Positions 7,945 through 63,894 of a stretch of DNA of 64,000 nucleotides are shown one piece after another; the first letter of the stretch is position 1; every line of letters starts with the position of its first letter. Position numbers and translations under genes: made by a program. Origin of the DNA: an uncultured Gammaproteobacteria bacterium (GTDB lineage Bacteria; Patescibacteriota; Patescibacteriia; Magasanikbacterales; GWA2-37-8); the NCBI GenBank assembly GCA_964496095.1, contig CAZBWU010000001.1, forward strand, positions 121,474 to 185,473, in the 5' to 3' direction. Under the pieces are notes generated by a model that saw only the letters and a list, made by a program, of their open reading frames with translations, did no database searches and had not been told where the DNA came from.

Positions 7945-9135
7945 ATGGCTGAGTTTATTAGAAACAAGCCACACATCAACATTGGTACTATCGGTCACGT
8001 TGACCATGGTAAGACCACTTTAACTGCTGCTATTTTGGCAGTTTTGCGTAGTCGCGGCGGAGCCGCTTCCAATAAGGGCGTAGATGATTTGGATAAATCA
8101 CCAGAGTCAAAAGCTCGTGGTATTACCATTTCTACCGCTCACGTAGAATATGAAACAGAAAACAGACATTATGCTCACGTTGATTGTCCAGGTCACGCTG
8201 ACTATGTCAAAAACATGATTACTGGTGCTGCTCAAATGGACGGCGCTATCCTTGTTGTTTCTGCTGCTGACGGTCCTATGCCTCAGACCAGAGAACATAT
8301 CTTACTTGCTCGTCAGGTAGGTGTGCCTTATATCGTTGTTTTCTTGAACAAAGTTGACCAAGTAAGTGATCCAGAATTGATTGACTTGGTTGAAGATGAA
8401 GTTCGTGATTTATTAAAGAAATACGGATTCCCTGGTGATACTACTCCAGTTATCCGTGGTTCTGCTTTACAAGCTTTACAAAACCCAACTGACGAAACTG
8501 CTTCTAAGTCTGTTTTAGACTTAATGAAGGCTGTTGACGAATATATTCCTCAACCTCAACGTGATGTAGATAAGCCATTTTTGATGCCTATCGAAGACGT
8601 ATTCTCCATTGAAGGCCGTGGTACTGTTGTAACCGGTCGTTTGGAAAGAGGCGTTATTCACTTGAATGATGAAGCTGAAATCGTTGGTATGCGTGAAGCT
8701 ACCTCCAAGACTGTTATTACTGGTATTGAAATGTTTAATAAACAGTTGAAAGAAGGTCAAGCTGGCGATAACGTTGGTTTATTGCTTCGCGGTACTAAGA
8801 AAGAAGAAGTAGAACGCGGTATGGTTATTGCCAAAGGCGGTTCTATTACTCCTCACACTGAATTTGAAGGTCAAGTTTATATCTTAACAAAAGAAGAAGG
8901 TGGAAGACACAAACCATTCTTCAAAGGCTATAAACCACAATTCTATATCCGTACTACCGATGTGACTGGTGAAGTTGAATTACCAGCTGGCACTGAAATG
9001 GTTATGCCAGGCGATACTATCGGATTTACTGTTAAATTAATCACTCCAGTAGCTATGGAAGAAAAGATGAACTTTGCTATCCGCGAAGGTGGCAAGACCG
9101 TAGGCTCTGGTGTTGTAACTAAGATTTTAAAATAA
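7945..9135 (+). CDS. tuf: Elongation factor Tu
   Basis: [26 protein letters not shown] GTPase motifs; 396 aa. Confidence 0.98.
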
Positions 9136-9145
9136 TTAATAATGA

Positions 9146-9184
9146 CCCCGAGCCGCAGCTGCGGCTCGGGGCATTTTGCTCTTT
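9146..9184 (+). terminator. Rho-independent terminator after tuf
   Basis: Perfect 13-bp palindrome CCCCGAGCCGCAG/CTGCGGCTCGGGG followed by cattttgctcttt. Confidence 0.75.
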
Positions 9185-9538
9185 ATGAAAGATACTCAAA
9201 CAACTAAAAAAACAGTTACCGCCACCGAAGAAGTAAGCACTCGCATCAGAATCAAGGTTCGTGCTTATGATAATAAAATTATCGATCAAGCCGTTAAGAA
9301 CATAATTGAAACTGCTGAAAGACATGGTGCTACTATCGTTGGTCCGATTCCATTGCCAACTGAAAAGACCAAGTTTACTGTTAATCGTTCTACTTTCGTT
9401 CACAAAGATGCTCGTGAACAATTTGAAATGAGAGTCCACAAACGTTTGATTGATATTGTCAATCCTAATGCCAAAACTGTAGACGCTTTGATGAGCCTTC
9501 AAGTGCCAGCAGGTGTAGACATAGAAATCAAAATGTAG
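9185..9538 (+). CDS. rpsJ: 30S ribosomal protein S10
   Basis: [10 protein letters not shown]...VGPIPLPT...HKRLIDI signature; TTG at 9176 is an alternative start. Confidence 0.95.
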
Positions 9539-9540
9539 TT

Positions 9541-9606
9541 TGTCCCGATTTTGCTTCGAGCAAAATTGAGGATCCGCGATTCCGCGACAAAGGGGAATCG
9601 GGACAG
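9541..9606. repeat. Nested-hairpin palindromic intergenic element (outer stem GTCCCGATT/AATCGGGAC with inner hairpins)
   Basis: Inverted repeats read directly; inner hairpin ATTTTGCTtcgaGCAAAAT. Confidence 0.5.
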
Positions 9607-9642
9607 GTCCCAGCTGGCGTTGACATTGAGATAAAGATGTAA
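9607..9642 (+). pseudogene. Second copy of the rpsJ 3' end: encodes [11 protein letters not shown]-stop, identical at amino-acid level to the S10 C-terminus but with ~10 synonymous substitutions; different frame, no start codon
   Basis: gtcccagctggcgttgacattgagataaagatgtaa versus rpsJ gtgccagcaggtgtagacatagaaatcaaaatgtag. Confidence 0.55.
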
Positions 9643-9653
9643 ACCCTTGACAG

Positions 9654-9682
9654 GTAATAAAAATTGTAGTAAAATCTAGATA
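9654..9682 (+). promoter_or_regulatory. Candidate promoter TTGACA-N17-TAAAAT driving the rplC leader
   Basis: Consensus -35, 17-nt spacer, AT-rich -10. Confidence 0.5.
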
Positions 9683-9790
9683 AATAAAAAAGTTTGTTCA
9701 GACTGAGTAAATAAGATCTAAAAGCCCTGATATTACTGAATATTTAAGACGGGCGAAGAAAACATTTACAAGGTCAGAAAAAACTGGAGG

Positions 9791-9884
9791 AAAAATATTT
9801 AACAATTCACCCAGTGAAATAATTCCGATAAAATCGGAATTGCCACAAAGTGGCATTTCACAGGGTAAACAAATTAAGCCATTC
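9791..9884 (+). ncRNA. Conserved structured leader RNA motif, copy 1 (three-way junction: 10-bp closing stem CCAGTGAAAT/ATTTCACAGG, hairpin AATTCCGATaaaATCGGAATT, hairpin GCCACaaaGTGGC, tail GGGTAAACAAATTAAGCC)
   Basis: Second copy at 55486-55574 shows compensatory changes (GAT/ATC to GAC/GTC; GTGGC to GTGGT); preceded by a TTTAACAAT boxA-like string. Confidence 0.6.
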
Positions 9885-9945
9885 TAAAATTCCTTAAAGT
9901 AAGGATGTTCGCTTAGATATAAATTTGAGCGAACAAGCAAGAAGG

Positions 9946-10002
9946 CTAGAAACGAAATCGTGATTAAGTAAGATTAATTTCGCTGTCGTTTCTAGTTTTT
10001 TA
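9946..10002 (+). terminator. Leader terminator/attenuator upstream of rplC
   Basis: Stem CTAGAAACGAAAT...ATTTCGctgTCGTTTCTAG followed by TTTTTT; additional hairpin GTTCGCT...AGCGAAC at 9907-9934. Confidence 0.6.
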
Positions 10003-10038
10003 ATTAAGACTTATCTCGTATATCTGGATATTACTAGT

Positions 10039-10752
10039 ATGAAATTTATTCTAGGCAAAAAAATAGGAATGACTCAGGTATTTTTGGCAAACGGTGTCGT
10101 TGTGCCTGTTACTAAAGTGCAAGCAGGTCCTTGCCAAATCGTTGAAGTACGAGAAAATAAAAAAGCTGGCACCAAAGCTGTGCAAATTGGTTTTGAAGAA
10201 ACAAAAGAAAGCCGATTAAGTAAGCCAGAGCTTGGTCATTTGAAAGATTTGGATAAGGTAAGAAATTTAAGAGATTTCAAAGTTGATAATAATGCTGAAG
10301 TAAAAAGAGGTGACGCAATCACAGTTGAAACTTTTACAGTTGGTGACAAGATAAATGTAGTTGGTGAATCCAAAGGTAAAGGTTTTGCCGGTGTAGTTAA
10401 GCGTCATCATTTCCGCGGTGGTCCTGCTTCTCACGGTCATAAAGATAACTTGCGTATGCCTGGTTCTATCGGAGCTGGTGGTGTGCAGAGAGTCTTCAAA
10501 GGCATGAGAATGGGCGGACACATGGGTACTGATCGTGTGACAATTAAAAATCTTGAAATTGTACAAGTTCACCCTGAAACAAATATTTTATATATCAAAG
10601 GCGCAGTTCCGGGCGGAAGAAATGGCTTATTGCTTATTAGTGGTGAAGGCGAGTTGAAATTAAATGTTTCAAATCAAATTGTTCCTGCTCAAGCAGAATT
10701 AGCTGTTGAAGCCGTTGTTGAAAATCAATCAAGTAATGAAGTTCAAGTATAA
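10039..10752 (+). CDS. rplC: 50S ribosomal protein L3
   Basis: GKKIGMTQVF...KGKGFAGVVKRHHF motifs. Confidence 0.95.
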   Translation: MKFILGKKIGMTQVFLANGVVVPVTKVQAGPCQIVEVRENKKAGTKAVQIGFEETKESRLSKPELGHLKDLDKVRNLRDFKVDNNAEVKRGDAITVETFTVGDKINVVGESKGKGFAGVVKRHHFRGGPASHGHKDNLRMPGSIGAGGVQRVFKGMRMGGHMGTDRVTIKNLEIVQVHPETNILYIKGAVPGGRNGLLLISGEGELKLNVSNQIVPAQAELAVEAVVENQSSNEVQV

Positions 10753-48124: not shown

Positions 48125-50023
48125 ATGTCGTTATTTCAATTAAAATCTAAATTTCAACCCGCGGGGGATCAGCCCGAAGCTATCAAGAAATTGATGGCTA
48201 GTTTGGATAAAGGAAATAGGTACCAAACATTGCTGGGCGTGACTGGGTCTGGTAAAACTTTTACTGTGGCCAATGTAATTAAAGATTTTGATCGGCCCGT
48301 TCTGATTATGGCGCCAAATAAAGCCTTAGCGGCGCAGTTGTATCGTGAATACAAAAATTTCTTTCCGGAAAATTCGGTAAATTATTTTGTGTCATACTAT
48401 GATTACTATCAACCTGAGGCATACATGCCAACCAGTGACACCTACATTGAAAAAGAATCAATGATCAATGAAGAGATAGATAGGTTGCGTCACCAGGCCA
48501 CCAGCGCCTTAATGTCTCGCAAAGATGTGATTGTCGTGGCGTCTGTGTCTTGTATTTATAATCTCGGCGTGCCGATAAATTATTTTGATTCAGCTTTACA
48601 TTTGGAAGTTGGTCAGCCTATGGTGCGAGCGGACTTGATGCGACAACTTATAAAAATTCAGTTTGCGCGTACGCCTGGATTATTAGAAAGAGGTAAATTT
48701 CGTGTGCGAGGCGAGGTTTTTGAGATTGCGCCAGCCTCTGAGAAGTTTGTTTATCGAATAGAAATAGTAAATCAAAAAATTGCGGAGATTGGCGTGGTAG
48801 ATGCGTTGACCAAAACTATCAAAGAACAAATGAAAGAGGCAATAATTTTTCCGGTAAAACATTTTGTCTCTTCTGAACCACAGATGAAAGAAGCTTTGAA
48901 AGAAATAAAAACAGAACTTAAAGAACGCTTGGCCTATTTTAAGAAAAAAGAATTATATCTAGAAGCTGAGCGACTAGAGCGTCGCACTCGTTATGATTTA
49001 GAGATGTTAAAAACTTTGGGTTTTTGTCATGGGATTGAAAATTATTCTAGGCATTTGGCAGGTAAGTTGGTAGGCGAGGCGCCAGATACTTTACTTTCAT
49101 ATTTTCCTTGGAAAAAAGATAAAGACGGTAAAAATATTCCTGATTTCCTTACGATTATGGATGAGTCGCACATTGGTCTGCCTCAGGTGCGAGGTATGTA
49201 CGCGGGGGATAGAAGTCGTAAAGATACTCTAGTTCAGTATGGCTGGAGATTGCCTTCGGCTCTTGATAATCGCCCGCTTAAGTTTGATGAATTTGAAAAA
49301 AGAGTAGGACAAGTTGTTTTTACTTCGGCAACTCCGGGAGATTTTGAGATGAGCCATTCGGCAGTAGTGGCTGAGCAGGTCATTCGTCCGACAGGTCTCA
49401 TTGATCCGCCGATAGAAGTGCGTCCAGTATTTAATAAACAAACAAACAGAGGCCAGGTGGATGATATTATTAGCGAGATTGAAACAATTATTAAAAACAA
49501 AGAAAGAGTGATTATTAATGTCCTGACCAAAAAAATGGCCGAGGAATTATCTGAATTTTTGAAACAAAAAAATTATCCAGCCAATTATTTGCATTCAGAT
49601 GTAAAAACTTTGGAACGTACAGAAATTCTTATGGCTTTTCGTGAAGGTAAGTTCAATGTGCTAATTGGTGTTAATCTTTTGCGTGAAGGTTTGGATTTAC
49701 CAGAGGTGACTCTTGTTGCCATTATGGATGCTGATAGGGAAGGGTTTTTACGCAGTGAAGAATCCTTGATGCAGACCATGGGTAGAGCTGCCAGAAATGT
49801 AAAAGGCAAAGTTATTTTGTACGCCGACAGTATTACAAGATCTATGAAAGCGGCGATGAAAGAAGTGGATAGGCGCCGTAAGGTGCAGATAGCCTATAAT
49901 ACCAAACATGGTATTACGCCACAGACAACAAATAAAGATATAGAACAGTTTTTGGATATGGCTACTGTGGATTTGAATTTGCCGGTACGGGAGAAGCGGT
50001 CTGGGAGAAAAAGTAAAAAATAA
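48125..50023 (+). CDS. uvrB: Excinuclease ABC subunit B
   Basis: GVTGSGKTFT; helicase motifs; beta-hairpin region. Confidence 0.95.
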   Translation: MSLFQLKSKFQPAGDQPEAIKKLMASLDKGNRYQTLLGVTGSGKTFTVANVIKDFDRPVLIMAPNKALAAQLYREYKNFFPENSVNYFVSYYDYYQPEAYMPTSDTYIEKESMINEEIDRLRHQATSALMSRKDVIVVASVSCIYNLGVPINYFDSALHLEVGQPMVRADLMRQLIKIQFARTPGLLERGKFRVRGEVFEIAPASEKFVYRIEIVNQKIAEIGVVDALTKTIKEQMKEAIIFPVKHFVSSEPQMKEALKEIKTELKERLAYFKKKELYLEAERLERRTRYDLEMLKTLGFCHGIENYSRHLAGKLVGEAPDTLLSYFPWKKDKDGKNIPDFLTIMDESHIGLPQVRGMYAGDRSRKDTLVQYGWRLPSALDNRPLKFDEFEKRVGQVVFTSATPGDFEMSHSAVVAEQVIRPTGLIDPPIEVRPVFNKQTNRGQVDDIISEIETIIKNKERVIINVLTKKMAEELSEFLKQKNYPANYLHSDVKTLERTEILMAFREGKFNVLIGVNLLREGLDLPEVTLVAIMDADREGFLRSEESLMQTMGRAARNVKGKVILYADSITRSMKAAMKEVDRRRKVQIAYNTKHGITPQTTNKDIEQFLDMATVDLNLPVREKRSGRKSKK

Positions 50024-50063
50024 ACTACTTATACTTTTTGTCACCAAAAAGTATCAAAAATTG

Positions 50064-50136
50064 TTGGGGGTGACAGAACTCACCTTGCTACAAGGTTGGT
50101 TCTGTAAATATGTTAGTTCGAACAGCTGTCACCCCA
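50064..50136. repeat. Nested-hairpin palindromic element (outer TTGGGGGTGACAG/CTGTCACCCCAA; inner CCTTGctaCAAGG) between uvrB and uvrA
   Basis: Read directly; preceded by hairpin TACTTTTTG-tcac-CAAAAAGTA at 50027-50051. Confidence 0.5.
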
Positions 50137-50212
50137 AACCCCTTTGTACAAGTAGCTTATTTATTAAGAAAACTTTTAAACTATTCAACCAGTTAACAAA
50201 TAAACTAATTCT

Positions 50213-52711
50213 ATGGAAGACAAAATCATAATTAAAAAAGCTCGGGTACATAATCTCAAAAATGTATCTTTGGAAATTCCGAAAAACAAACTGATTGTTT
50301 TTACGGGTGTGTCTGGGAGCGGTAAATCCTCCCTTGCTTTTGATACTATTTTTGCGGAAGGACAGCGTCGGTATATAGAATCTTTATCACCTTATGCTCG
50401 CCAGTTTTTGGGGCAGATGGAGCGAGCTGATGTGGATGAAATTACCGGTTTGTCACCAGCCATTGCTATTGGTCAAAAGGCGCTGAGCCATAATCCAAGA
50501 TCTATTGTTGGGACGCTCACAGAAATCTATGACTATTTGCGCGTGCTTTATGCCAGACTGGGAGAAGTATTTTGTCCAACTTGTGGCACAAAAATAGAAA
50601 AATTATCTCCAGAAGAAATGATTGATATTATTTTGGGGATGGCCAAAGAGCTAAATCAAAAAACGGTGACGATTTTATCTCCCGTGGTGCGTGGTCGCAA
50701 GGGTGAGTACTATCAATTATTGTATGATTTTTTGAACGAAGGTTTTGAGCAGGCGCGTGTGGATGGCAAAATGCATTCATTGCATGATCGCATAGAATTA
50801 TCTAGAAATAAAATACACAACATAGAAGTATTGGTAGATAGAGTGATGATTAGCGACGAGAGCCGTTTGTTTGAGGCTGTAGAAGGCGCCTTACAACACA
50901 GTAAAGGGCTAGTGACGGTTTTGTTTGGTGAAAATACCAAGAATCCAATTGAAAGATTGTTATCTAGCCACTGGTCTTGTCCGGAAGATGGTTTTTCTTT
51001 TCCTGAGATTGAACCTCGTCTTTTTTCTTTTAACTCTCCAGCAGGAGCTTGTGTGGCCTGTGGCGGTTTGGGCAAAGCCGAAGTTTTTAGTAAAGAAATT
51101 TGTCCCGAATGTGTTGGTAAAAGACTCAAGCCCGAAGCCTTATCTGTACGGATTAAAAATAAAAATATTTATGAAGTTTCAGCCATGACCATAGAAGAAG
51201 GTTTTGATTTTTTCAAAGAGTATGGCAAGAAACTAAACGAACGCCAGACCATGATTGCTCACAATATTATTAAAGAAATAAACGACCGGTTTAAATTCTT
51301 ACTTGAAGTGGGCTTGGATTATATTACTCTTAATCGCGAGGCACATACCTTGTCTGGTGGGGAAGCGCAACGTATCCGCTTGGCCTCGCAGATTGGTTCG
51401 CATCTTTCTAATACGTTATATGTGTTAGATGAGCCAACCATTGGTTTGCATGAGAGAGATACAGAAAGATTGGTTAATACCTTGAAGGCGCTTCGTGATG
51501 AAAATAATACAGTGATTATTGTGGAACATGATGAGCGAACCATAAAAGAGTCTGATTATTTGGTTGATCTTGGTCCGATGGCTGGTGAGCTCGGCGGAGA
51601 AGTGGTTTATAGCGGACCAACCAAAAGTATAAAAGATGAAAAAAATAAATCTCTGACTTTGAAATATTTAACTGAAGAAGTAAAAATAGAAGTGCCAAAA
51701 AAACGTCGCTGGAAAGAAACTGAAGAAATTTCGATTGTCGGCGCACGCGCCAATAATCTCAAAAATATAAATGTGAAAATTCCGTTGCGAAAGTTTGTTT
51801 GTATTTCCGGTGTTTCCGGCGGTGGCAAGTCGTCTCTTCTATATGATGTGCTCTACGAAAATGTGGCCAGAATAAAAAGTCGATTTAAGAAGTTAGAAGA
51901 TGTCAGTAAAATTACTGGCACTGAGTATGTAGATAAAGCCGTGATTGTCGATCAAGCGCCAATTGGCCGCACGCCGAGGTCAAATCCCGCCACCTATACT
52001 GGCATCTTTACCCCGATTCGTGATTTTTATACCAGCTTAGAAGAGGCAAGAGTGCGCGGTTATACTCATTCCCGGTTTTCTTTTAACGTACCCGGTGGTC
52101 GTTGTGAATCTTGCCAAGGAGCTGGTTTTAATACGATTGAGATGCACTTCATGCCTGAGGTAGAAGTGCCTTGCGAAGTCTGTCATGGCAAGCGCTTTAG
52201 CCGTGAGACGTTGCAAGTTAAGCATAAAAATAAAAACATCAGTGATGTCCTCGAGATGACCGTTAACGAGGCGGTCAAATTTTTCGAGCATATTTATCAA
52301 ATTACTGATAAACTAAAGGTATTGCAAGAAGTTGGTTTGGGCTATTTGCGTTTGGGGCAAAGTGCCACAACCCTTTCTGGTGGAGAAGCACAGAGAATAA
52401 AATTGGCTCGCGAATTAGCGGCGCCACTAGGCAAGAAAAATTTGTATCTGCTAGACGAACCGTCAGTTGGGTTGCACTATCACGATATTGAGATGTTATT
52501 GGCAGTGTTGAACAAATTAGTTGATAAAGGAAATTCAGTCGTGGTGATTGAACATAACTTGCATATTATCAAGTGCGCGGATTATATTATAGATATGGGT
52601 CCTGAGGGTGGAGCTAAAGGTGGAATAGTCGTAGCCAAAGGCACGCCTGAAGAAGTCGGCGATAATCCAAATTCTTATACGGGAATGTATTTGAGACCGT
52701 ATTTGGATTAG
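50213..52711 (+). CDS. uvrA: Excinuclease ABC subunit A (compact, 832 aa)
   Basis: Two ABC cassettes ([10 protein letters not shown]; [10 protein letters not shown]), LSGGE signatures, zinc modules CxxC. Confidence 0.95.
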
Positions 52712-59949: not shown

Positions 59950-61680
59950 ATGAGTGATTTTCCTTCAATTAATAATTTGCTCGGTAAGTCTGCAAAAAGT
60001 ACTGCAAATACAAATAGTACTTTGCCAAGCGTCAGCGATGGCGCTGAAGAAAAATTTGATAAAAAGATTCATCAGATGGATCTTAAAAATAAAGAGGATT
60101 TGGTTGTTCAGCAAGCCGCTTCTATTGGTTTACCTCATATTGATTTAACCTCTTTTCCTATTACTGTGGAGGCTTTAAGAACAATTCCTGAAAAAGATGC
60201 TTTATCTCAAAAAGTTATTTGTTTTTTTAATGTGCCGGAAGAAATTAGACTAGCCTGTTTAGATTTTAATGATCAAATAAAAGAGTTGGCGTATCAGTTG
60301 GGCGAAAAATATCATGCTAACACTAAAGTTTATTTAATTTCTGAAAATAGTTTTACCAAAGCCATGAAGCTGTATAAGAATTTGCCCGTCGTAAAACCAA
60401 TCAGCAAAGATATAAATATTACCGATGAAGAGTTAGAAAAGTTTAAATCAGGTGTGATTGATTTTAGAAGTCTGGAGAAGCAGTTTTTAAATGTTTCTAT
60501 TAGTGATATTTTGACGCTGATGATTGCGGCGGCTCTCAAAGTTGACTCGTCAGATGTGCATGTGGAAGCCGAGGAAAACGGTATTATGGTTCGCTATCGT
60601 ATTGACGGCGTATTACACGACGTCGCTACTTTGCCAAAAGACCAATGGAAAAAGTTTATTTCTCGTATCAAACTTTTGGCAGCTTTGAAAATAAATATTG
60701 AAGACCGCCCACAGGATGGTCGTGTGACTTTGAAGTTATCTTCGGGCAGTCTCGATGTCCGTGTTTCTACTATGCCCACTATTTATGGTGAGAGTGTGGT
60801 GATGAGAATTTTGCACAGCGGTAATAAAGGTGTTACCTTTGACGAGTTAGGGCTTCGTGGTGATGCCTACGCCAAATTAAAAAAAGAAGTGGAGCGTCCA
60901 AATGGGATGATTATTACAACCGGTCCGACTGGAAGCGGAAAGACTACTACCATGTATGCTATTCTGCGTTCTCTTAATAAACCGGGTGTAAAAATTATTA
61001 CTTTGGAAGATCCGGTAGAAATTAAAATTGACGGCATTAATCAAAGCCAGGTAGATACTAGTCATGATTATACCTTTGCTAAAGGTTTGCGTAGTTTGTT
61101 ACGTCAAGATCCAGATATTTGTCTGGTTGGTGAAATCCGTGATTTAGAAACAGCTGAGATTTCAATCCAGGCAGCTTTAACCGGGCACTTAATGCTTTCT
61201 ACTATTCATACCAACAGCGCATCGGGAACTGTGCCAAGATTTTTGTCTATGGGTGTGAAGCCGTTTTTGTTGGCGCCGGCGCTTAACTCGGTGATTGGAC
61301 AGAGATTAGTTCGTAAGGTTTGTCCGCATTGTCAGGAAGAGGATAAGCTATCTTCGGAAGACATGGAAAGAATTATGAAAAATTTGGAGACTTTACCGGA
61401 AGTAGAAAAAAAGAATGTTGATTTTAAAAATTTGAAATTTTATAAAGGCAAAGGTTGTCAGCAGTGCAGTGGTTTGGGTTATAAAGGGAGAATTGGGATT
61501 TATGAAATTTTTATCATGAATAAAGAATTGGAACAGGTGATTTTGGGTAGCCAAATTTCAGAGTATATTATTCAAGATTGGGCGGTAAAAAATGGAATGG
61601 TGACGATGGTACAGGATGGACTGCTCAAAGCTTTAGATAAAATTACAACAGTAGAGGAAGTATTTAGAGTTATTGAGTAG
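59950..61680 (+). CDS. Type IV pilus / type II secretion assembly ATPase (PilB/GspE family)
   Basis: GPTGSGKTTT Walker A; Asp and His boxes; C-terminal CxxC...CxxC. Confidence 0.9.
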   Translation: MSDFPSINNLLGKSAKSTANTNSTLPSVSDGAEEKFDKKIHQMDLKNKEDLVVQQAASIGLPHIDLTSFPITVEALRTIPEKDALSQKVICFFNVPEEIRLACLDFNDQIKELAYQLGEKYHANTKVYLISENSFTKAMKLYKNLPVVKPISKDINITDEELEKFKSGVIDFRSLEKQFLNVSISDILTLMIAAALKVDSSDVHVEAEENGIMVRYRIDGVLHDVATLPKDQWKKFISRIKLLAALKINIEDRPQDGRVTLKLSSGSLDVRVSTMPTIYGESVVMRILHSGNKGVTFDELGLRGDAYAKLKKEVERPNGMIITTGPTGSGKTTTMYAILRSLNKPGVKIITLEDPVEIKIDGINQSQVDTSHDYTFAKGLRSLLRQDPDICLVGEIRDLETAEISIQAALTGHLMLSTIHTNSASGTVPRFLSMGVKPFLLAPALNSVIGQRLVRKVCPHCQEEDKLSSEDMERIMKNLETLPEVEKKNVDFKNLKFYKGKGCQQCSGLGYKGRIGIYEIFIMNKELEQVILGSQISEYIIQDWAVKNGMVTMVQDGLLKALDKITTVEEVFRVIE

Positions 61681-61812: not shown

Positions 61813-63894
61813 ATGGATTTAAATACAAAAATATCTGAATTGGGTAAAGTTGGCAAAAAAGTAGCCAAACTTTTTGATTCTCTTGGTGTAAAAAAAGCCA
61901 AGGATTTGTTGTATTATTTTCCTTTTAGGTATGAAGATTATAGGCAAATAGTTTCAGTCGCGGATTTAAAGGAAGGAGAGTTGGTTACTATTTGTGTGCA
62001 AGTAGAACTTGTGGCCAATAAGCGAAGTTTTAAAAGTAGAAGAATGATTACTGAGGCGTTAGTGTCAGACAAGAGTGGAAGTGTCAGAGTGAAATGGTTT
62101 AATCAGCCGTATATAATTAAAAATATAAAGACAGGGGATGTAATTTATCTTTCAGGGAAAGTAAAATCTGATATGTTGGGGCCGCAGTTGGTCAGTCCGC
62201 TTTATGAAAAGTACAAGAAAGAAACAACCCATACCGCTCGCTTAGTGCCGATATATCCGCTTACAAAAAGTTTAACTCAAAAGCAGGTAAGATTTTTGAT
62301 GAATGAAGTGGTTGGTTTGTTAGAGAAGATTGAAGATTGGTTGCCAAAAAATATCTTGGAGTTTGCTGATCTAACACCGCTTGCCAATGCTTTACGAGGA
62401 ATTCATTTCCCGACTGACGAGCATGAATTAAAATTGAGCGAGGATAGATTAAAATTTGATGAGTTATTTTTGGTGCAGATGAAAGCCGAATTGGCCAAAA
62501 AGGGTAAGGAGTTATTGCGAGCGCCAAATATTATTTTTCAAGAAGAAAAAATTAAACAGTTTGTATCGTCTCTGCCTTTTTCTCTTACTAAATCGCAGAA
62601 AGTTTCCGCTTGGGAAATTCTACAAGATATAAACAAAAATTCGCCAATGAACCGTTTGGTTTCGGGGGATGTGGGGTCTGGCAAGACAGTCGTAGCGGCC
62701 ATGGCTATGTATGATGTTTTTCTAAATGACTATCAGGCGGTGATAATGGCGCCAACTGAAATTTTGGCCTTTCAGCACTATCAATCCTTAGTAAAATTAT
62801 ATAAAGGATTAAATATTACCGTGGCTTTGCTTACGGGCAACCAGATGCAAATCAATGACCAAGTTGAACCTGAGAAGATTAGTAAAAAAGTTTTTTTAGA
62901 GCAAATAAAAAATGGGAACATAAATATTATTGTGGGTACGCATGCTTTGCTTTCAGACAATGTTATCTTTAAAAAATTGGGATTGGTGGTTGTGGACGAG
63001 CAGCACCGTTTCGGGGTAGAACAAAGAAAGTTAATAAAAACCAAAGGCACGGGGGCGCATTTTTTGAGTATGACCGCTACCCCTATTCCTCGATCGTTGG
63101 CCCTGATGATTTATGGTGATTTGGATGTTTCTATTATCAATGAATTGCCACCAGGCAGAAAAACTATTATCACTAAACTGGTAGAGCCTATTAAACGCGA
63201 CAAGGCTTACCAGTTTATTCGGGAGCAAGTAAAACAAGGCAGGCAAGTATTTGTTATTTGTCCGCTTATTGAAGTAGCTGACACTGAAGGGCAGACTTTG
63301 ATATTTGGTGCTGAGGACAAAAAAAGTGTTTTAAGCGAGTATGAAAAATTATCAAAGCAAACCTTTCCTGATTTAAGGGTTGGGTTTTTGCATGGGAAGT
63401 TAAAGCCAAAAGAAAAAGACGAGGTAATGGGGAAATTTAAAAATGGCGAAATAGATTTACTTGTTTCTACTTCGGTGGTGGAGGTAGGCGTGGATATCCC
63501 TAATGCTAGCGTGATGATGATAGAAGGGGCGCAGAGTTTTGGTTTGGCACAGTTACACCAGTTTCGTGGTCGGGTTGGGCGGTCTGTGCATCAGTCTTAC
63601 TGTTTGTTATTTACGGCTTCTAGCTCGGTCAAATCAATGGAAAGGTTAAAATTTTTTGAACAGCACAATGACGGGTTTCAACTCGCTGAAAAAGATTTGG
63701 AAGTACGTGGGCCGGGAGAAGTCTATGGTACAGAGCAGAGTGGAGAAATAGGTTTGCGTCTGGCTAAATTAACTGATAGAGAACTGATAAAAAAAGCGCG
63801 CGAGGCGGCAAAAATTGCTATGGAAAATATAAAAGACAACCCGAAATTGTTAGCAAGGGTGAAAGATTGGAAGAAGGAAACGCATTTGGAGTAA
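61813..63894 (+). CDS. recG: ATP-dependent DNA helicase RecG
   Basis: Wedge domain, helicase motifs GDVGSGKT, DEQHRFG. Confidence 0.93.
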   Translation: MDLNTKISELGKVGKKVAKLFDSLGVKKAKDLLYYFPFRYEDYRQIVSVADLKEGELVTICVQVELVANKRSFKSRRMITEALVSDKSGSVRVKWFNQPYIIKNIKTGDVIYLSGKVKSDMLGPQLVSPLYEKYKKETTHTARLVPIYPLTKSLTQKQVRFLMNEVVGLLEKIEDWLPKNILEFADLTPLANALRGIHFPTDEHELKLSEDRLKFDELFLVQMKAELAKKGKELLRAPNIIFQEEKIKQFVSSLPFSLTKSQKVSAWEILQDINKNSPMNRLVSGDVGSGKTVVAAMAMYDVFLNDYQAVIMAPTEILAFQHYQSLVKLYKGLNITVALLTGNQMQINDQVEPEKISKKVFLEQIKNGNINIIVGTHALLSDNVIFKKLGLVVVDEQHRFGVEQRKLIKTKGTGAHFLSMTATPIPRSLALMIYGDLDVSIINELPPGRKTIITKLVEPIKRDKAYQFIREQVKQGRQVFVICPLIEVADTEGQTLIFGAEDKKSVLSEYEKLSKQTFPDLRVGFLHGKLKPKEKDEVMGKFKNGEIDLLVSTSVVEVGVDIPNASVMMIEGAQSFGLAQLHQFRGRVGRSVHQSYCLLFTASSSVKSMERLKFFEQHNDGFQLAEKDLEVRGPGEVYGTEQSGEIGLRLAKLTDRELIKKAREAAKIAMENIKDNPKLLARVKDWKKETHLE

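What the first reader, a model, noticed from the sequence alone, without database searches (positions are those of the whole stretch)
9607..9642. Relic second copy of the rpsJ 3' end with exclusively synonymous divergence
About 100 nt after the rpsJ stop, the sequence gtcccagctggcgttgacattgagataaagatgtaa encodes [11 protein letters not shown] followed by a stop. This is the exact S10 C-terminus, yet 10 of 11 codons differ at synonymous positions. It is in a different frame and has no start codon. It is the footprint of a divergent rpsJ homolog, consistent with recombination, lateral acquisition or duplication when the 500-bp leader module was inserted between rpsJ and rplC. It abuts a nested-hairpin element.
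Basis: seen in the sequence. Interest (0 to 1): 0.6.

Follow-up and report, generated by a model that had tools for sequence, protein, structure and literature searches.

The report
Displaced native end of rpsJ
In this Patescibacteria (CPR) genome, about 110 bases of foreign DNA replaced the last 12 codons of the ribosomal protein S10 gene; the original end survives untranslated just downstream, and similar scars recur at other conserved translation genes in this bacterial group.

Summary
Window 9604-9642 re-encodes [12 protein letters not shown] plus a stop, 65 nt after the rpsJ stop. It differs from the functional end at 10 of 39 bases, all silent.

It is not an assembly artefact. Two per-run assemblies are identical to the window here, and a 98%-identical strain from another sample carries the same structure with its own SNPs.

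- The downstream copy is the native end. It abuts the conserved rplC-operon promoter exactly as the functional end does in relatives without the insert.
- It differs from the native end of the sister lineage (L186) at the backbone rate, 4 of 39 against 8%.
- The functional end (about 9496-9538) and the 65-nt double hairpin (9539-9603) are a small import. They differ from that native end at 23-26%.

The sister lineage has a different hairpin and a shorter relic at the same gene end. Eight further loci with the same anatomy turned up at rpsJ, tuf, a probable fusA and rplC in other Patescibacteria. The promoter and leader are ancestral, not co-inserted.

The likeliest mechanism is homeologous or illegitimate recombination with DNA from a related species. 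A dedicated ORF-less cassette is not excluded. The closest known analogue is endonuclease-linked C-terminal swapping in fungal mitochondria.

The parts
7945..9135 (+). tuf (EF-Tu), the gene upstream of rpsJ
   Evidence: A 396-aa ORF with a typical EF-Tu sequence. It is aligned with the L001 tuf.
9146..9171 (+). GC-rich perfect palindrome in the tuf-rpsJ spacer (terminator-like). L001 has a hairpin at the same position with a different stem.
9185..9538 (+). rpsJ (ribosomal protein S10), the functional gene, 117 aa
   Evidence: Pfam PF00338 is recorded for this exact protein on other contigs.
9496..9538 (+). Imported, translated 3' end of rpsJ ('F1': agc ctt caa gtg ... atg tag)
   Evidence: SNP density against the sister lineage L186 jumps from 20/251 (8%) in 9245-9495 to 11/43 (26%) here (Fisher p = 0.0018). 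F1 differs at 9 of 39 from the native end of L186 (p = 0.003). Its nearest relatives are L193, L001 and L187. The left boundary is approximate, somewhere in 9482-9500.
9539..9603 (+). Insert 'X': a 65-nt double hairpin, 51% GC in a 39% GC genome, that came in with the imported gene end
   Evidence: The fold has z = -4.0 as RNA and z = -3.5 as DNA. It is absent from L001 and other relatives. It occurs once in the window, has no Rfam match, and shows no similarity to the inserts of L186, L189 or L193.
9604..9642 (+). Relic: the native last 12 codons and stop of rpsJ, untranslated
   Evidence: It is contiguous with the promoter, as the functional end is in L001. It is nearest to the L194 and L188 functional ends (3 and 5 of 39 differences) and to the native end of L186 (4 of 39).
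9647..9675 (+). Sigma-70-type promoter of the rplC operon (TTGACA, 17 nt, TAAAAT). It starts 4 nt after the relic stop.
   Evidence: It matches 11 of 12 consensus positions and is conserved in L001, L083, L186, L187, L189, L193, L194 and L196.
9676..10038 (+). Leader of the rplC operon. It contains conserved blocks and an attenuator-like hairpin followed by T6 (9946-10001).
   Evidence: Alignments, and sequences. No Rfam family matches.
10039..10752 (+). rplC (ribosomal protein L3)
   Evidence: Pfam PF00297 is recorded on the identical contig.

Best explanation
The fragment at 9604-9642 is the original 3' end of rpsJ. A short piece of DNA from a related but distinct member of the same S10 '[12 protein letters not shown]' clade entered the gene about 40 nt before its stop. 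That piece is roughly 9496-9603. It carries the donor's version of the last 12-14 codons, a stop codon, and 65 nt that fold into two hairpins.

Translation now ends in the imported copy. The native end was pushed downstream unchanged and is no longer translated.

The two copies differ only at silent sites because they diverged as working genes in two lineages. The relic is too young to have decayed.

Inference, not shown:
- The left junction was a homeologous crossover inside rpsJ, and the right junction was an illegitimate join at the foot of the hairpin. This is the geometry of homology-facilitated or short-patch illegitimate recombination after DNA uptake.
- The native end was kept because it lies at about -40 to -75 of the rplC-operon promoter. 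Only insertions that leave it next to the -35 box and bring their own gene end are tolerated.
- The hairpin may serve as a 3' stem-loop for the tuf-rpsJ transcript.

The confidence given (0.72) is for the core claim: native relic plus a small lateral import. The specific recombination route is less certain.
For: 1. The structure is real. Three independent assemblies or samples carry it.

2. The relic is native.
- The junction TAA-ACCCTTGACAGG is identical to the L001 functional end plus promoter.
- Clade members without the insert have an 'att gaR ata aaR atg' end followed directly by the promoter region.
- The relic differs at 3 of 39 from the L194 functional end and at 4 of 39 from the native end of L186. 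The latter matches the 8% backbone divergence (binomial p = 0.38, so no excess).

3. The translated end is foreign and the import is small.
- Divergence from L186 is 8% over 9245-9495 and 26% over 9496-9538 (p = 0.0018).
- F1 differs from the L186 native end at 9 of 39 (p = 0.003).

4. The copies did not diverge in place. All 10 differences are silent (about 2e-7 if the relic had drifted neutrally).

5. The process recurs.
- The sister lineage L186 (97% S10 identity) has an unrelated 64-nt hairpin and a shorter relic (att gaa ata aag atg taa) at the same gene end. The window's relic is uninterrupted, so the two events are separate.
- The same anatomy occurs at rpsJ in L023, L047 and L108, at tuf in L013, at a probable fusA in L065, and at rplC in L098 and L117.
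- In L117 the relic is a different L3 C-terminus type from the translated end, one that other lineages use.

6. The neighbourhood is mosaic. Divergence from L186 ranges from about 5% in rplC to about 30% in part of tuf.

7. A type IV pilus (PilB-type) ATPase lies in the window.
Against: - No donor carrying F1 and X contiguously was found, so the junction microhomology cannot be checked.
- The homologous anchor implied by the data is under about 50 nt, and donor-recipient identity is about 80%. That is shorter and more diverged than in classical HFIR experiments (PMC6382021, read).
- Relic lengths are narrowly distributed (5-16 codons in all cases), which a random illegitimate join does not obviously predict.
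- Some inserts at different genes and in different genomes share motifs. L098 and L117 share GGTGCRGCTTGCCCCGTAGT. L065 and L013 share CCTGCCC(G)CCGTAGCT...AAGGAGG. This hints at an element rather than random donor flanks.
- The relic uses codons that are rare in this genome (0.9th percentile). However, those codons are typical of native rpsJ ends in the clade.
- The roles proposed for the relic (UP-element region) and for the hairpin are untested.
Confidence: 0.72

Rival explanations
1. A dedicated, ORF-less 'gene-end replacement cassette'. In this reading a small selfish hairpin element homes into the conserved 3' ends of translation genes. It carries a recoded copy of the displaced codons, so the host gene survives and the new allele is no longer a target. 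A nuclease or recombinase encoded elsewhere mobilises it. This would be the ORF-less counterpart of the endonuclease-linked C-terminal swaps of fungal mitochondria.
For: - Two different events hit the same gene end in sister lineages.
- Eight further loci occur in other Patescibacteria at four conserved genes.
- The import is precise and tiny, and relic lengths are narrow.
- 50 of 64 codons that could vary silently differ between the paired copies, against 62% for random ortholog pairs (p = 0.0045). This could reflect selection for dissimilarity.
- Inserts share motifs across genes and genomes.
- The relic frame is open through the insert in 5 of 8 cases, against about 2.2 expected. This could be the remnant of an ORF fused to the native end.
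- Active homing endonucleases are known in CPR rRNA genes (PMC11270868).
Against: - No ORF or nuclease lies in or beside any insert. ORFs in long rpsJ-rplC spacers gave no endonuclease domain.
- X, X' and the L189 and L193 hairpins share no sequence.
- X is single-copy in the 64-kb window, which holds only four GC-rich perfect hairpins.
- No Rfam family matches.
Confidence: 0.17
2. The translated end and the hairpin are resident, and the relic, promoter, leader and downstream operon were brought in from another lineage.
For: - The relic's codon usage is atypical for this genome, while the translated end looks ordinary.
- The insertion boundaries of a direct duplication are inherently ambiguous.
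- Synonymous codon identity to L001 is lower in rpsJ (0.50) than in tuf or rplC (0.64).
Against: - Against the sister L186, the rpsJ core, the relic, the leader and rplC all diverge at 5-10%. Only 9496-9538 is an outlier at 26%.
- L186 carries an orthologous relic next to the same promoter (1 of 18 nt different) behind a different insert.
- The promoter and leader are shared by the whole clade.
Confidence: 0.04
3. The copies arose by duplication in place and then diverged. The trigger would be a long target-site duplication made by a hairpin element, or a replication template switch.
For: Recent-looking versions with near-identical repeats exist elsewhere:
- L029 has a 57-nt exact repeat.
- L031 has 36/37-nt repeats flanking a roughly 520-nt cassette with one ORF.
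- L093 has 21-nt exact repeats around a 27-nt palindrome inside rplC.
- In L023 the 23 nt after the stop are an exact inverted copy of the gene end.
Against: - All 10 differences between the window's copies are silent (about 2e-7 under neutral drift of an untranslated copy).
- Silent sites are near saturation (9 of 11), while first and second codon positions are untouched.
- The relic tracks the backbone divergence and F1 does not.
- In L117 the relic is a different L3 C-terminus type.
Confidence: 0.03
4. The structure is an assembly chimera of two co-occurring strains.
For: Conserved genes in metagenomes are prone to strain-level graph tangles. All sequences used here are metagenome-derived.
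Against: - Two per-run Logan assemblies give identical structure, and a different ENA sample gives the same structure with its own SNPs.
- The two copies share no run longer than 5 nt, so no k-mer path could join them.
- The 65-nt spacer belongs to neither allele.
Confidence: 0.01
5. The second copy is used. Ribosomes would reach it by frameshifting, readthrough or bypassing, giving an S10 isoform with an internal extension.
For: The relic frame is open from 9469 to 9642, and the zero frame is open for 31 codons after the TAG. In L013 the relic is in frame with tuf and open after its stop.
Against: - An open frame through X is expected by chance about one time in three.
- In L065 and L117 the relic frame is closed.
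- No slippery site or matched take-off and landing codons were identified.
- The product would duplicate or disrupt a conserved C-terminus.
- Relatives lack the structure altogether.
Confidence: 0.02

Closest known systems
Mobile-ORF (homing endonuclease) mediated C-terminal swapping in fungal mitochondria: Allomyces macrogynus atp6; Glomus sp. atp6, atp9, cox2, nad3; Rhizopus atp9; Mortierella cox2 (PMC3630166, read)
   Same: A foreign copy of the last part of a conserved gene is inserted in frame and becomes the translated end. The native C-terminus remains downstream as an unexpressed relic. The native relic matches close relatives, while the inserted end is more divergent. Differences between the copies are largely synonymous. 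The events recur at several genes.
   Different: In those cases a LAGLIDADG or GIY-YIG endonuclease ORF of about 1 kb sits between the two ends and is the demonstrated motor. Here the spacer is 65 nt of hairpin with no ORF, the host is a bacterium, and the targets are translation genes in the str/S10 region.
Homology-facilitated illegitimate recombination (and short-patch illegitimate recombination) during natural transformation: de Vries & Wackernagel 2002; Prudhomme et al. 2002; Meier & Wackernagel 2003, as summarised in PMC6382021
   Same: Foreign DNA is integrated with one end in homologous or homeologous sequence and the other joined illegitimately nearby. This works between sequences 15-23% diverged. 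It would naturally favour highly conserved genes as anchors.
   Different: Those are laboratory events with longer anchors, and they usually delete recipient DNA. Here nothing is lost, the implied anchor is under 50 nt, the donor is unknown, and junction microhomology could not be examined.
Integrative elements that enter the 3' end of a gene and supply a replacement end: prophage e14 / phage 21 in E. coli icd (icdC pseudogene); streptococcal ICEs at rpsI, rplL, rpmG. This entry rests on my own knowledge and was not checked here.
   Same: The gene stays intact because the incoming DNA carries its own, slightly different copy of the 3' end. The native end is displaced.
   Different: Those elements are kilobases long, encode an integrase, and leave an identical core in both repeats. 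Here the insert is 65 nt, has no gene, and the longest run shared by the two copies is 5 nt.
Small palindromic mobile DNAs that enter genes: Rickettsia palindromic elements, yeast mitochondrial GC clusters, Allomyces double-hairpin elements. These rest on my own knowledge; the double-hairpin elements are also mentioned in PMC3787672.
   Same: They are short, GC-richer than the genome, and fold into one or two hairpins. They are found at gene ends and in spacers.
   Different: Those are multi-copy sequence families and do not carry a copy of the host gene's end. X is single-copy in the window and unrelated to the other inserts.

Membership tests
Endonuclease-linked (mORF) C-terminal swap | A foreign C-terminal segment is fused in frame to the native gene body and ends translation | tested here: met
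   F1 (about 9496-9538) is in frame and diverges 23-26% from the sister lineage, against 8% for the gene core.
Endonuclease-linked (mORF) C-terminal swap | The native C-terminus is retained downstream as an untranslated relic that matches close relatives | tested here: met
   The relic at 9604-9642 differs at 3-5 of 39 from the L194 and L188 functional ends and at 4 of 39 from the L186 native end. It has no start codon.
Endonuclease-linked (mORF) C-terminal swap | A homing-endonuclease ORF lies between the inserted and native ends | tested here: not met
   Only 65 nt separate the two ends and they contain no ORF. None of the other cases has an ORF with an endonuclease domain.
Integrase-mediated insertion (attL/attR around an element) | An identical core sequence is present in both direct repeats | tested here: not met
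   The longest identical run between the copies is 5 nt, and identity is 29 of 39.
Integrase-mediated insertion (attL/attR around an element) | A recombinase gene or element body lies between the repeats | tested here: not met
   The spacer is 65 nt of non-coding hairpin.
Transposable element / MITE with target-site duplication | The flanking direct repeats are identical at insertion, and the non-functional copy then decays at all codon positions | tested here: not met
   All 10 differences are silent (about 2e-7 under neutral decay).
Transposable element / MITE with target-site duplication | Multiple related copies exist in the genome | tested here: not met
   There is one copy in the 64 kb, even allowing 3 mismatches, and no shared 12-mers of note. 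The rest of the genome was not available.
Homology-facilitated illegitimate recombination | One junction lies in homologous sequence and the other at a non-homologous site with microhomology | tested here: inconclusive
   The left boundary lies within homologous rpsJ sequence, shown by the step in SNP density at about 9496. The right junction (9603/9604) is non-homologous. The donor is unknown, so microhomology cannot be scored.
Homology-facilitated illegitimate recombination | A DNA-uptake and recombination apparatus is present in the host | tested here: inconclusive
   A PilB-type T2SSE ATPase, RecG and UvrAB are in the window. comEC and recA were not seen in these 64 kb, and the rest of the genome is not available.
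Known structured RNA (Rfam): ribosomal-protein leaders, ribozymes, riboswitches | A match to a curated covariance model | tested here: not met
   No credible hit in 9000-10200 at E up to 10. The only matches are hairpin look-alikes far below gathering scores. The six other loci also gave nothing.
Programmed recoding (frameshift / bypass / readthrough) | A recoding signal, and a second frame that is conserved as open among relatives | tested here: inconclusive
   The relic frame is open through X, but the chance probability is about 0.33. It is open in 5 of 8 cases against about 2.2 expected, and closed in L065 and L117. No signal was identified and translation was not testable.

The most novel reading that the evidence does not exclude
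Patescibacteria may harbour a previously undescribed kind of minimal selfish or semi-selfish DNA: ORF-less 'gene-end replacement cassettes'. Each would consist of a recoded copy of the last 5-16 codons of a highly conserved translation gene (rpsJ, tuf, fusA, rplC), a stop codon, and 50-150 nt of hairpin. They would insert repeatedly and precisely into those gene ends, moved by a factor encoded elsewhere, and leave the native end as a datable fossil.
Probability: 0.17. Interest if true: 0.8.

Novelty: new variant of a known kind. Interest (0 to 1): 0.6.

Why it matters
- Even the most conserved, essential operon region of these reduced genomes is repeatedly rewritten on a 100-nt scale by DNA from other lineages. 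The encoded protein does not change, so protein-level comparisons and ribosomal-protein phylogenies cannot see these events.
- The relics record the direction and relative age of the transfer. They give a simple, scalable way to measure fine-scale recombination in uncultured bacteria.
- The anatomy mirrors endonuclease-driven C-terminal swaps in fungal mitochondria but lacks the endonuclease. Either illegitimate recombination alone can produce this pattern again and again, or an unknown mobilising activity exists. A genome-wide census could decide between the two.
- The retained relic also suggests that the end of rpsJ doubles as upstream promoter sequence for the rplC operon.

Tried and rejected
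- Rfam scans of the region and of six other relic-bearing loci found nothing. ARAGORN found no tRNA or tmRNA nearby.
- Searches for further copies of X found none, either in the window or in 160 related loci. A 19-nt core of X has no exact match in viral contigs.
- The GCTTGCCCCGTAGTNAA motif gave 22 viral-contig matches. By my rough estimate that is about the chance number for 16 specified bases, so I did not follow it up.
- ORFs in long rpsJ-rplC spacers gave no endonuclease domain. They yielded only DUF4258, a weak DUF6293_C match, and unrelated accessory genes.
- X, X' and the L189 and L193 hairpins show no significant similarity to each other.
- Close CCGAT...ATCGG pairs are not enriched in the window: 3 found against 2.1 expected.
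- Polarity could not be decided from L001 alone. F1 and the relic differ from it at 6 and 7 of 39. It was resolved only after fetching closer relatives.
- The codon-usage argument that the relic is foreign was dropped once native ends in the clade proved to use the same codons.
- A scan for relics 400-3500 nt downstream of genes, which would reveal ORF-containing cassettes, found only L031. A scan for 5'-end duplicates found nothing convincing.

Full report
**Observation**

rpsJ occupies 9185-9538 on the + strand and ends caa gtg cca gca ggt gta gac ata gaa atc aaa atg tag. Sixty-five bases later, 9604-9642 reads cag gtc cca gct ggc gtt gac att gag ata aag atg taa. This again encodes [12 protein letters not shown] followed by a stop.

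The two copies share 29 of 39 bases, with no identical run longer than 5. All ten differences are silent third-position changes, including the stop.

The second copy is 104 nt out of register with the first. No ATG, GTG or TTG precedes it in its frame.

The intervening 65 nt (9539-9603, 51% GC in a 39% GC window) fold into two adjacent hairpins (-30.7 kcal/mol, z = -4.0). They match no Rfam family and occur once in the window.

**Is it real?**

The organism is a member of the Patescibacteria (CPR). The exact S10 protein is encoded on contigs from two other sequencing runs, assembled separately. Both are identical to the window across the whole structure. A strain from a different study (L185, 98% S10 identity) has the same arrangement with 17 SNPs over 838 nt, one in the hairpin and one silent change in the relic. 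The two copies share no k-mer that could mislead an assembler. I therefore reject an assembly artefact.

**Which copy is the original?**

The first close relative available, L001 (87% S10 identity), has no insert. Its stop codon TAA is followed directly by ACCCTTGACAGG..TAGTAAAATCTAG. That is the same sequence that follows the relic's TAA in the window, and it is a near-consensus promoter, TTGACA-17-TAAAAT at 9647-9675. L001 alone could not settle polarity, because it differs from the two copies at 6 and 7 of 39 positions.

A protein search showed that the window belongs to a large clade whose S10 ends in [12 protein letters not shown]. I fetched the gene neighbourhoods of ten members. Three results followed.

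- Members without an insert (L001, L187, L194, L196) have 'att gaR ata aaR atg' ends followed directly by the promoter region. The window's relic is of this type and differs from the L194 functional end at only 3 of 39 positions.
- The sister lineage L186 differs from the window by 8% over the rpsJ core (20/251) and by about 5-8% in the leader and rplC. Over 9496-9538 it differs by 26% (11/43; Fisher p = 0.0018).
- The native end of L186, reconstructed below, differs from the window's relic at 4 of 39 positions, as the backbone rate predicts. It differs from the translated end at 9 of 39 (p = 0.003).

So the relic is the resident end. The translated end and the hairpin, about 110 nt in all, are the import. 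The donor belonged to the same clade: both copies encode Q-V where most other Patescibacteria in the sample have L in place of V. It was a different sublineage, since the translated end is nearest to L193, L001 and L187.

The relic's odd codon usage for this genome is simply the usage of native rpsJ ends in the clade.

**Why only silent differences?**

The two copies diverged as working genes in separate lineages. The insertion predates the window-L185 split (2.8% core divergence) and postdates the split from L186, so the relic has had little time to decay. Duplication in place followed by drift is excluded. Only 21% of single substitutions in the relic would be silent, which gives about 2e-7 for ten of ten.

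**A second, different event next door**

L186 also has an insert at the end of rpsJ, but a different one. Its translated end is cag gta cca gct ggt gtt gat | ata gaa att aag atg taa. A 64-nt single long hairpin follows, unrelated in sequence to the window's. Then comes a short relic, att gaa ata aag atg taa, and then the same promoter.

Its first seven codons resemble the window's relic (3 of 21 differences) more than the window's translated end (5 of 21). Its relic differs from the window's at 1 of 18. Its native end is therefore those seven codons plus the short relic.

The window's relic is uninterrupted, so the window lineage never carried the L186 insert. This means two separate events in sister lineages. 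Other clade members have a bare hairpin (L189, L193) or a small ORF (L188) between the stop and the promoter, without a relic.

**Recurrence elsewhere**

I scanned every ORF in the window and in 160 related loci for a second copy of its own C-terminus within 400 nt downstream. The same anatomy turned up at:
- rpsJ in L023, L047 and L108;
- tuf in L013 (15 codons, 11 silent differences, none replacing);
- a probable fusA in L065;
- rplC in L098 and L117.

Controls using the reversed peptide gave only weaker, partial matches.

L098 and L117 share the start of their insert, GGTGCRGCTTGCCCCGTAGT, which is better conserved than the flanking coding sequence. In L117 the relic (GVPGKNGILLEIISLK*) is a different L3 C-terminus type from the translated end (...GHKGTLLEIRGE*), and other lineages use endings of that type.

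Across seven of these cases (L117 was not tallied), 50 of 64 codons that could vary silently do differ between the paired copies. Random ortholog pairs differ at 62% (p = 0.0045).

Versions with near-identical repeats also exist (L029; L031, which has a roughly 520-nt cassette; L093, which is inside rplC).

**The leader**

The promoter and several leader blocks, including an attenuator-like hairpin followed by T6 (9946-10001), are shared by relatives with and without relics. Spacers of 100-500 nt between rpsJ and rplC are normal in this group. The leader is ancestral. The window lineage has merely added further segments within it.

**Mechanism**

Shown:
- a small lateral import with its left boundary inside homologous coding sequence;
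- a right boundary at the foot of a hairpin;
- no loss of recipient DNA;
- recurrence of the pattern.

Inferred: the event was a homeologous crossover combined with an illegitimate join after DNA uptake. This is the geometry described for homology-facilitated illegitimate recombination (PMC6382021). Conserved translation genes would be the only usable anchors between diverged lineages. The region is visibly mosaic, and a type IV pilus ATPase lies in the window.

Also inferred: the native end is kept because it occupies about -40 to -75 of the rplC-operon promoter. By analogy, at other genes it may hold the initiation region of the next gene. Only insertions that bring their own gene end and leave the native one in place would then be viable. 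The hairpin may act as a 3' stem-loop for the tuf-rpsJ transcript; it lacks a U-tract.

Points against simple recombination:
- the anchor is very short;
- relic lengths are narrow (5-16 codons);
- some inserts share motifs;
- the relic frame is open through the insert more often than expected (5 of 8 against about 2.2).

A dedicated ORF-less cassette therefore remains possible, at about 0.17. No nuclease or ORF was found in or near any insert.

**Comparison with known systems**

The closest described phenomenon is C-terminal swapping by mobile endonuclease ORFs in fungal mitochondria (Allomyces atp6; Glomus atp6, atp9, cox2, nad3). There a foreign C-terminus becomes the expressed end. The native C-terminus persists downstream, matches close relatives, and differs from the insert mainly at silent sites (PMC3630166).

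Two of three defining features are met here. The third, the endonuclease ORF, is absent. The window's structure works like that system but is not a member of it.

Integrase att duplications and transposon target duplications fail their defining tests (no identical core, no element body, no neutral decay). I found no description of this in CPR protein genes. The CPR literature I read concerns insertions in rRNA genes (PMC11270868).

**Verdict**

The feature is real and well explained. It is a new variant of a known kind. Its interest comes less from this single relic than from the recurrence of the pattern across conserved translation genes in Patescibacteria.

Noticed in passing
window 9647-10038: The rplC operon has its own near-consensus promoter 4 nt after the relic stop. 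Its leader has blocks conserved across the clade (GTAAATAAGAT, AAAACATTTA) and an attenuator-like hairpin followed by T6 (9946-10001). No Rfam family matches, so this may be an undescribed ribosomal-protein leader, perhaps responsive to L4 or L3.
   Followed up: partly
window 9723-9759 and about 9800-9870: These are segments of the leader specific to the window/L185 lineage and absent from L186 and L001. One contains the hairpin AATTCCGAT-AAA-ATCGGAATT (9821-9841), whose stem shares AATCGG with insert X. CCGAT...ATCGG pairs are not enriched overall (3 found against 2.1 expected).
   Followed up: partly
L013 2597-2695; L065 1227-1342; L098 2532-2617; L117 about 1797-1893; L108 2621-2799; L023 3310-3477; L047 3319-3418: Other Patescibacteria loci have an untranslated second copy of a gene's last 5-16 codons behind a hairpin-forming insert. 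The genes are tuf, a probable fusA, rplC (twice) and rpsJ (three times). Where the amino-acid sequence is kept, nearly all differences between the paired copies are silent.
   Followed up: partly
L186 821-902: The sister lineage of the window has a different 64-nt hairpin insert and an 18-nt relic at the same rpsJ end. Its imported codons (ata gaa att aag atg) are identical to the L193 functional end.
   Followed up: yes
L031 3902-4510: A cassette of about 520 nt sits in the end of rplC. It has its own TTGACA promoter-like site, one 142-aa ORF with no Pfam match, and a terminator. It is flanked by 36/37-nt direct repeats of the rplC end. It looks like a gene-carrying version of the same kind of insertion.
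   Followed up: partly
L093 about 975-1045: rplC carries an in-frame 27-nt perfect palindrome (GATGAAGCT-AA-AGCTTCATC core) flanked by exact 21-nt direct repeats (PFAVAQV ... PFAVAQV). The same contig also has a larger near-duplicate upstream that may be an assembly loop.
   Followed up: no
L023 3282-3332: The 23 nt after the rpsJ stop are an exact inverted copy of the last 23 nt of the gene, placing the stop codon in the loop. A GC-rich (61%) insert and the relic follow. This suggests fold-back or template-switch synthesis at the junction.
   Followed up: no
window 9478-9490: Five of the 17 SNPs between the window and the 98%-identical strain L185 fall within 13 nt, just upstream of the imported segment. 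This looks like a very short conversion patch.
   Followed up: no
window 8723-8901 (tuf): Against L186, this part of tuf differs at about 30% of positions, while the rest of tuf, rpsJ, the leader and rplC differ at 5-10%. The region is a recombination mosaic.
   Followed up: no
L030, L124 (rplW N-termini); L141 (rplD); L013 insert: A GC-rich motif of the form CCTCCTTCGC..AGCT.CGG.GG.CA (encoding SFAKASEDK or SFAPASAEATAGK) appears in N-terminal extensions of L23. It appears in reverse orientation in the L013 tuf insert, and related sequence lies inside L4 of L141. It may be a dispersed palindromic sequence that is tolerated inside genes.
   Followed up: no
L071, L050, L070, L188 (rpsJ-rplC spacers): The rpsJ-rplC junction is a hotspot for accessory genes in these bacteria. 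Examples are a DUF4258 protein (Pfam match), other spacer ORFs not checked against Pfam (L050, L070) and small ORFs of unknown function.
   Followed up: partly
window 59950-61680: A PilB-type T2SSE ATPase lies here, with RecG (61813-63894) and UvrB and UvrA (48125-52711) nearby. These are components relevant to DNA uptake and repair in this reduced genome.
   Followed up: no
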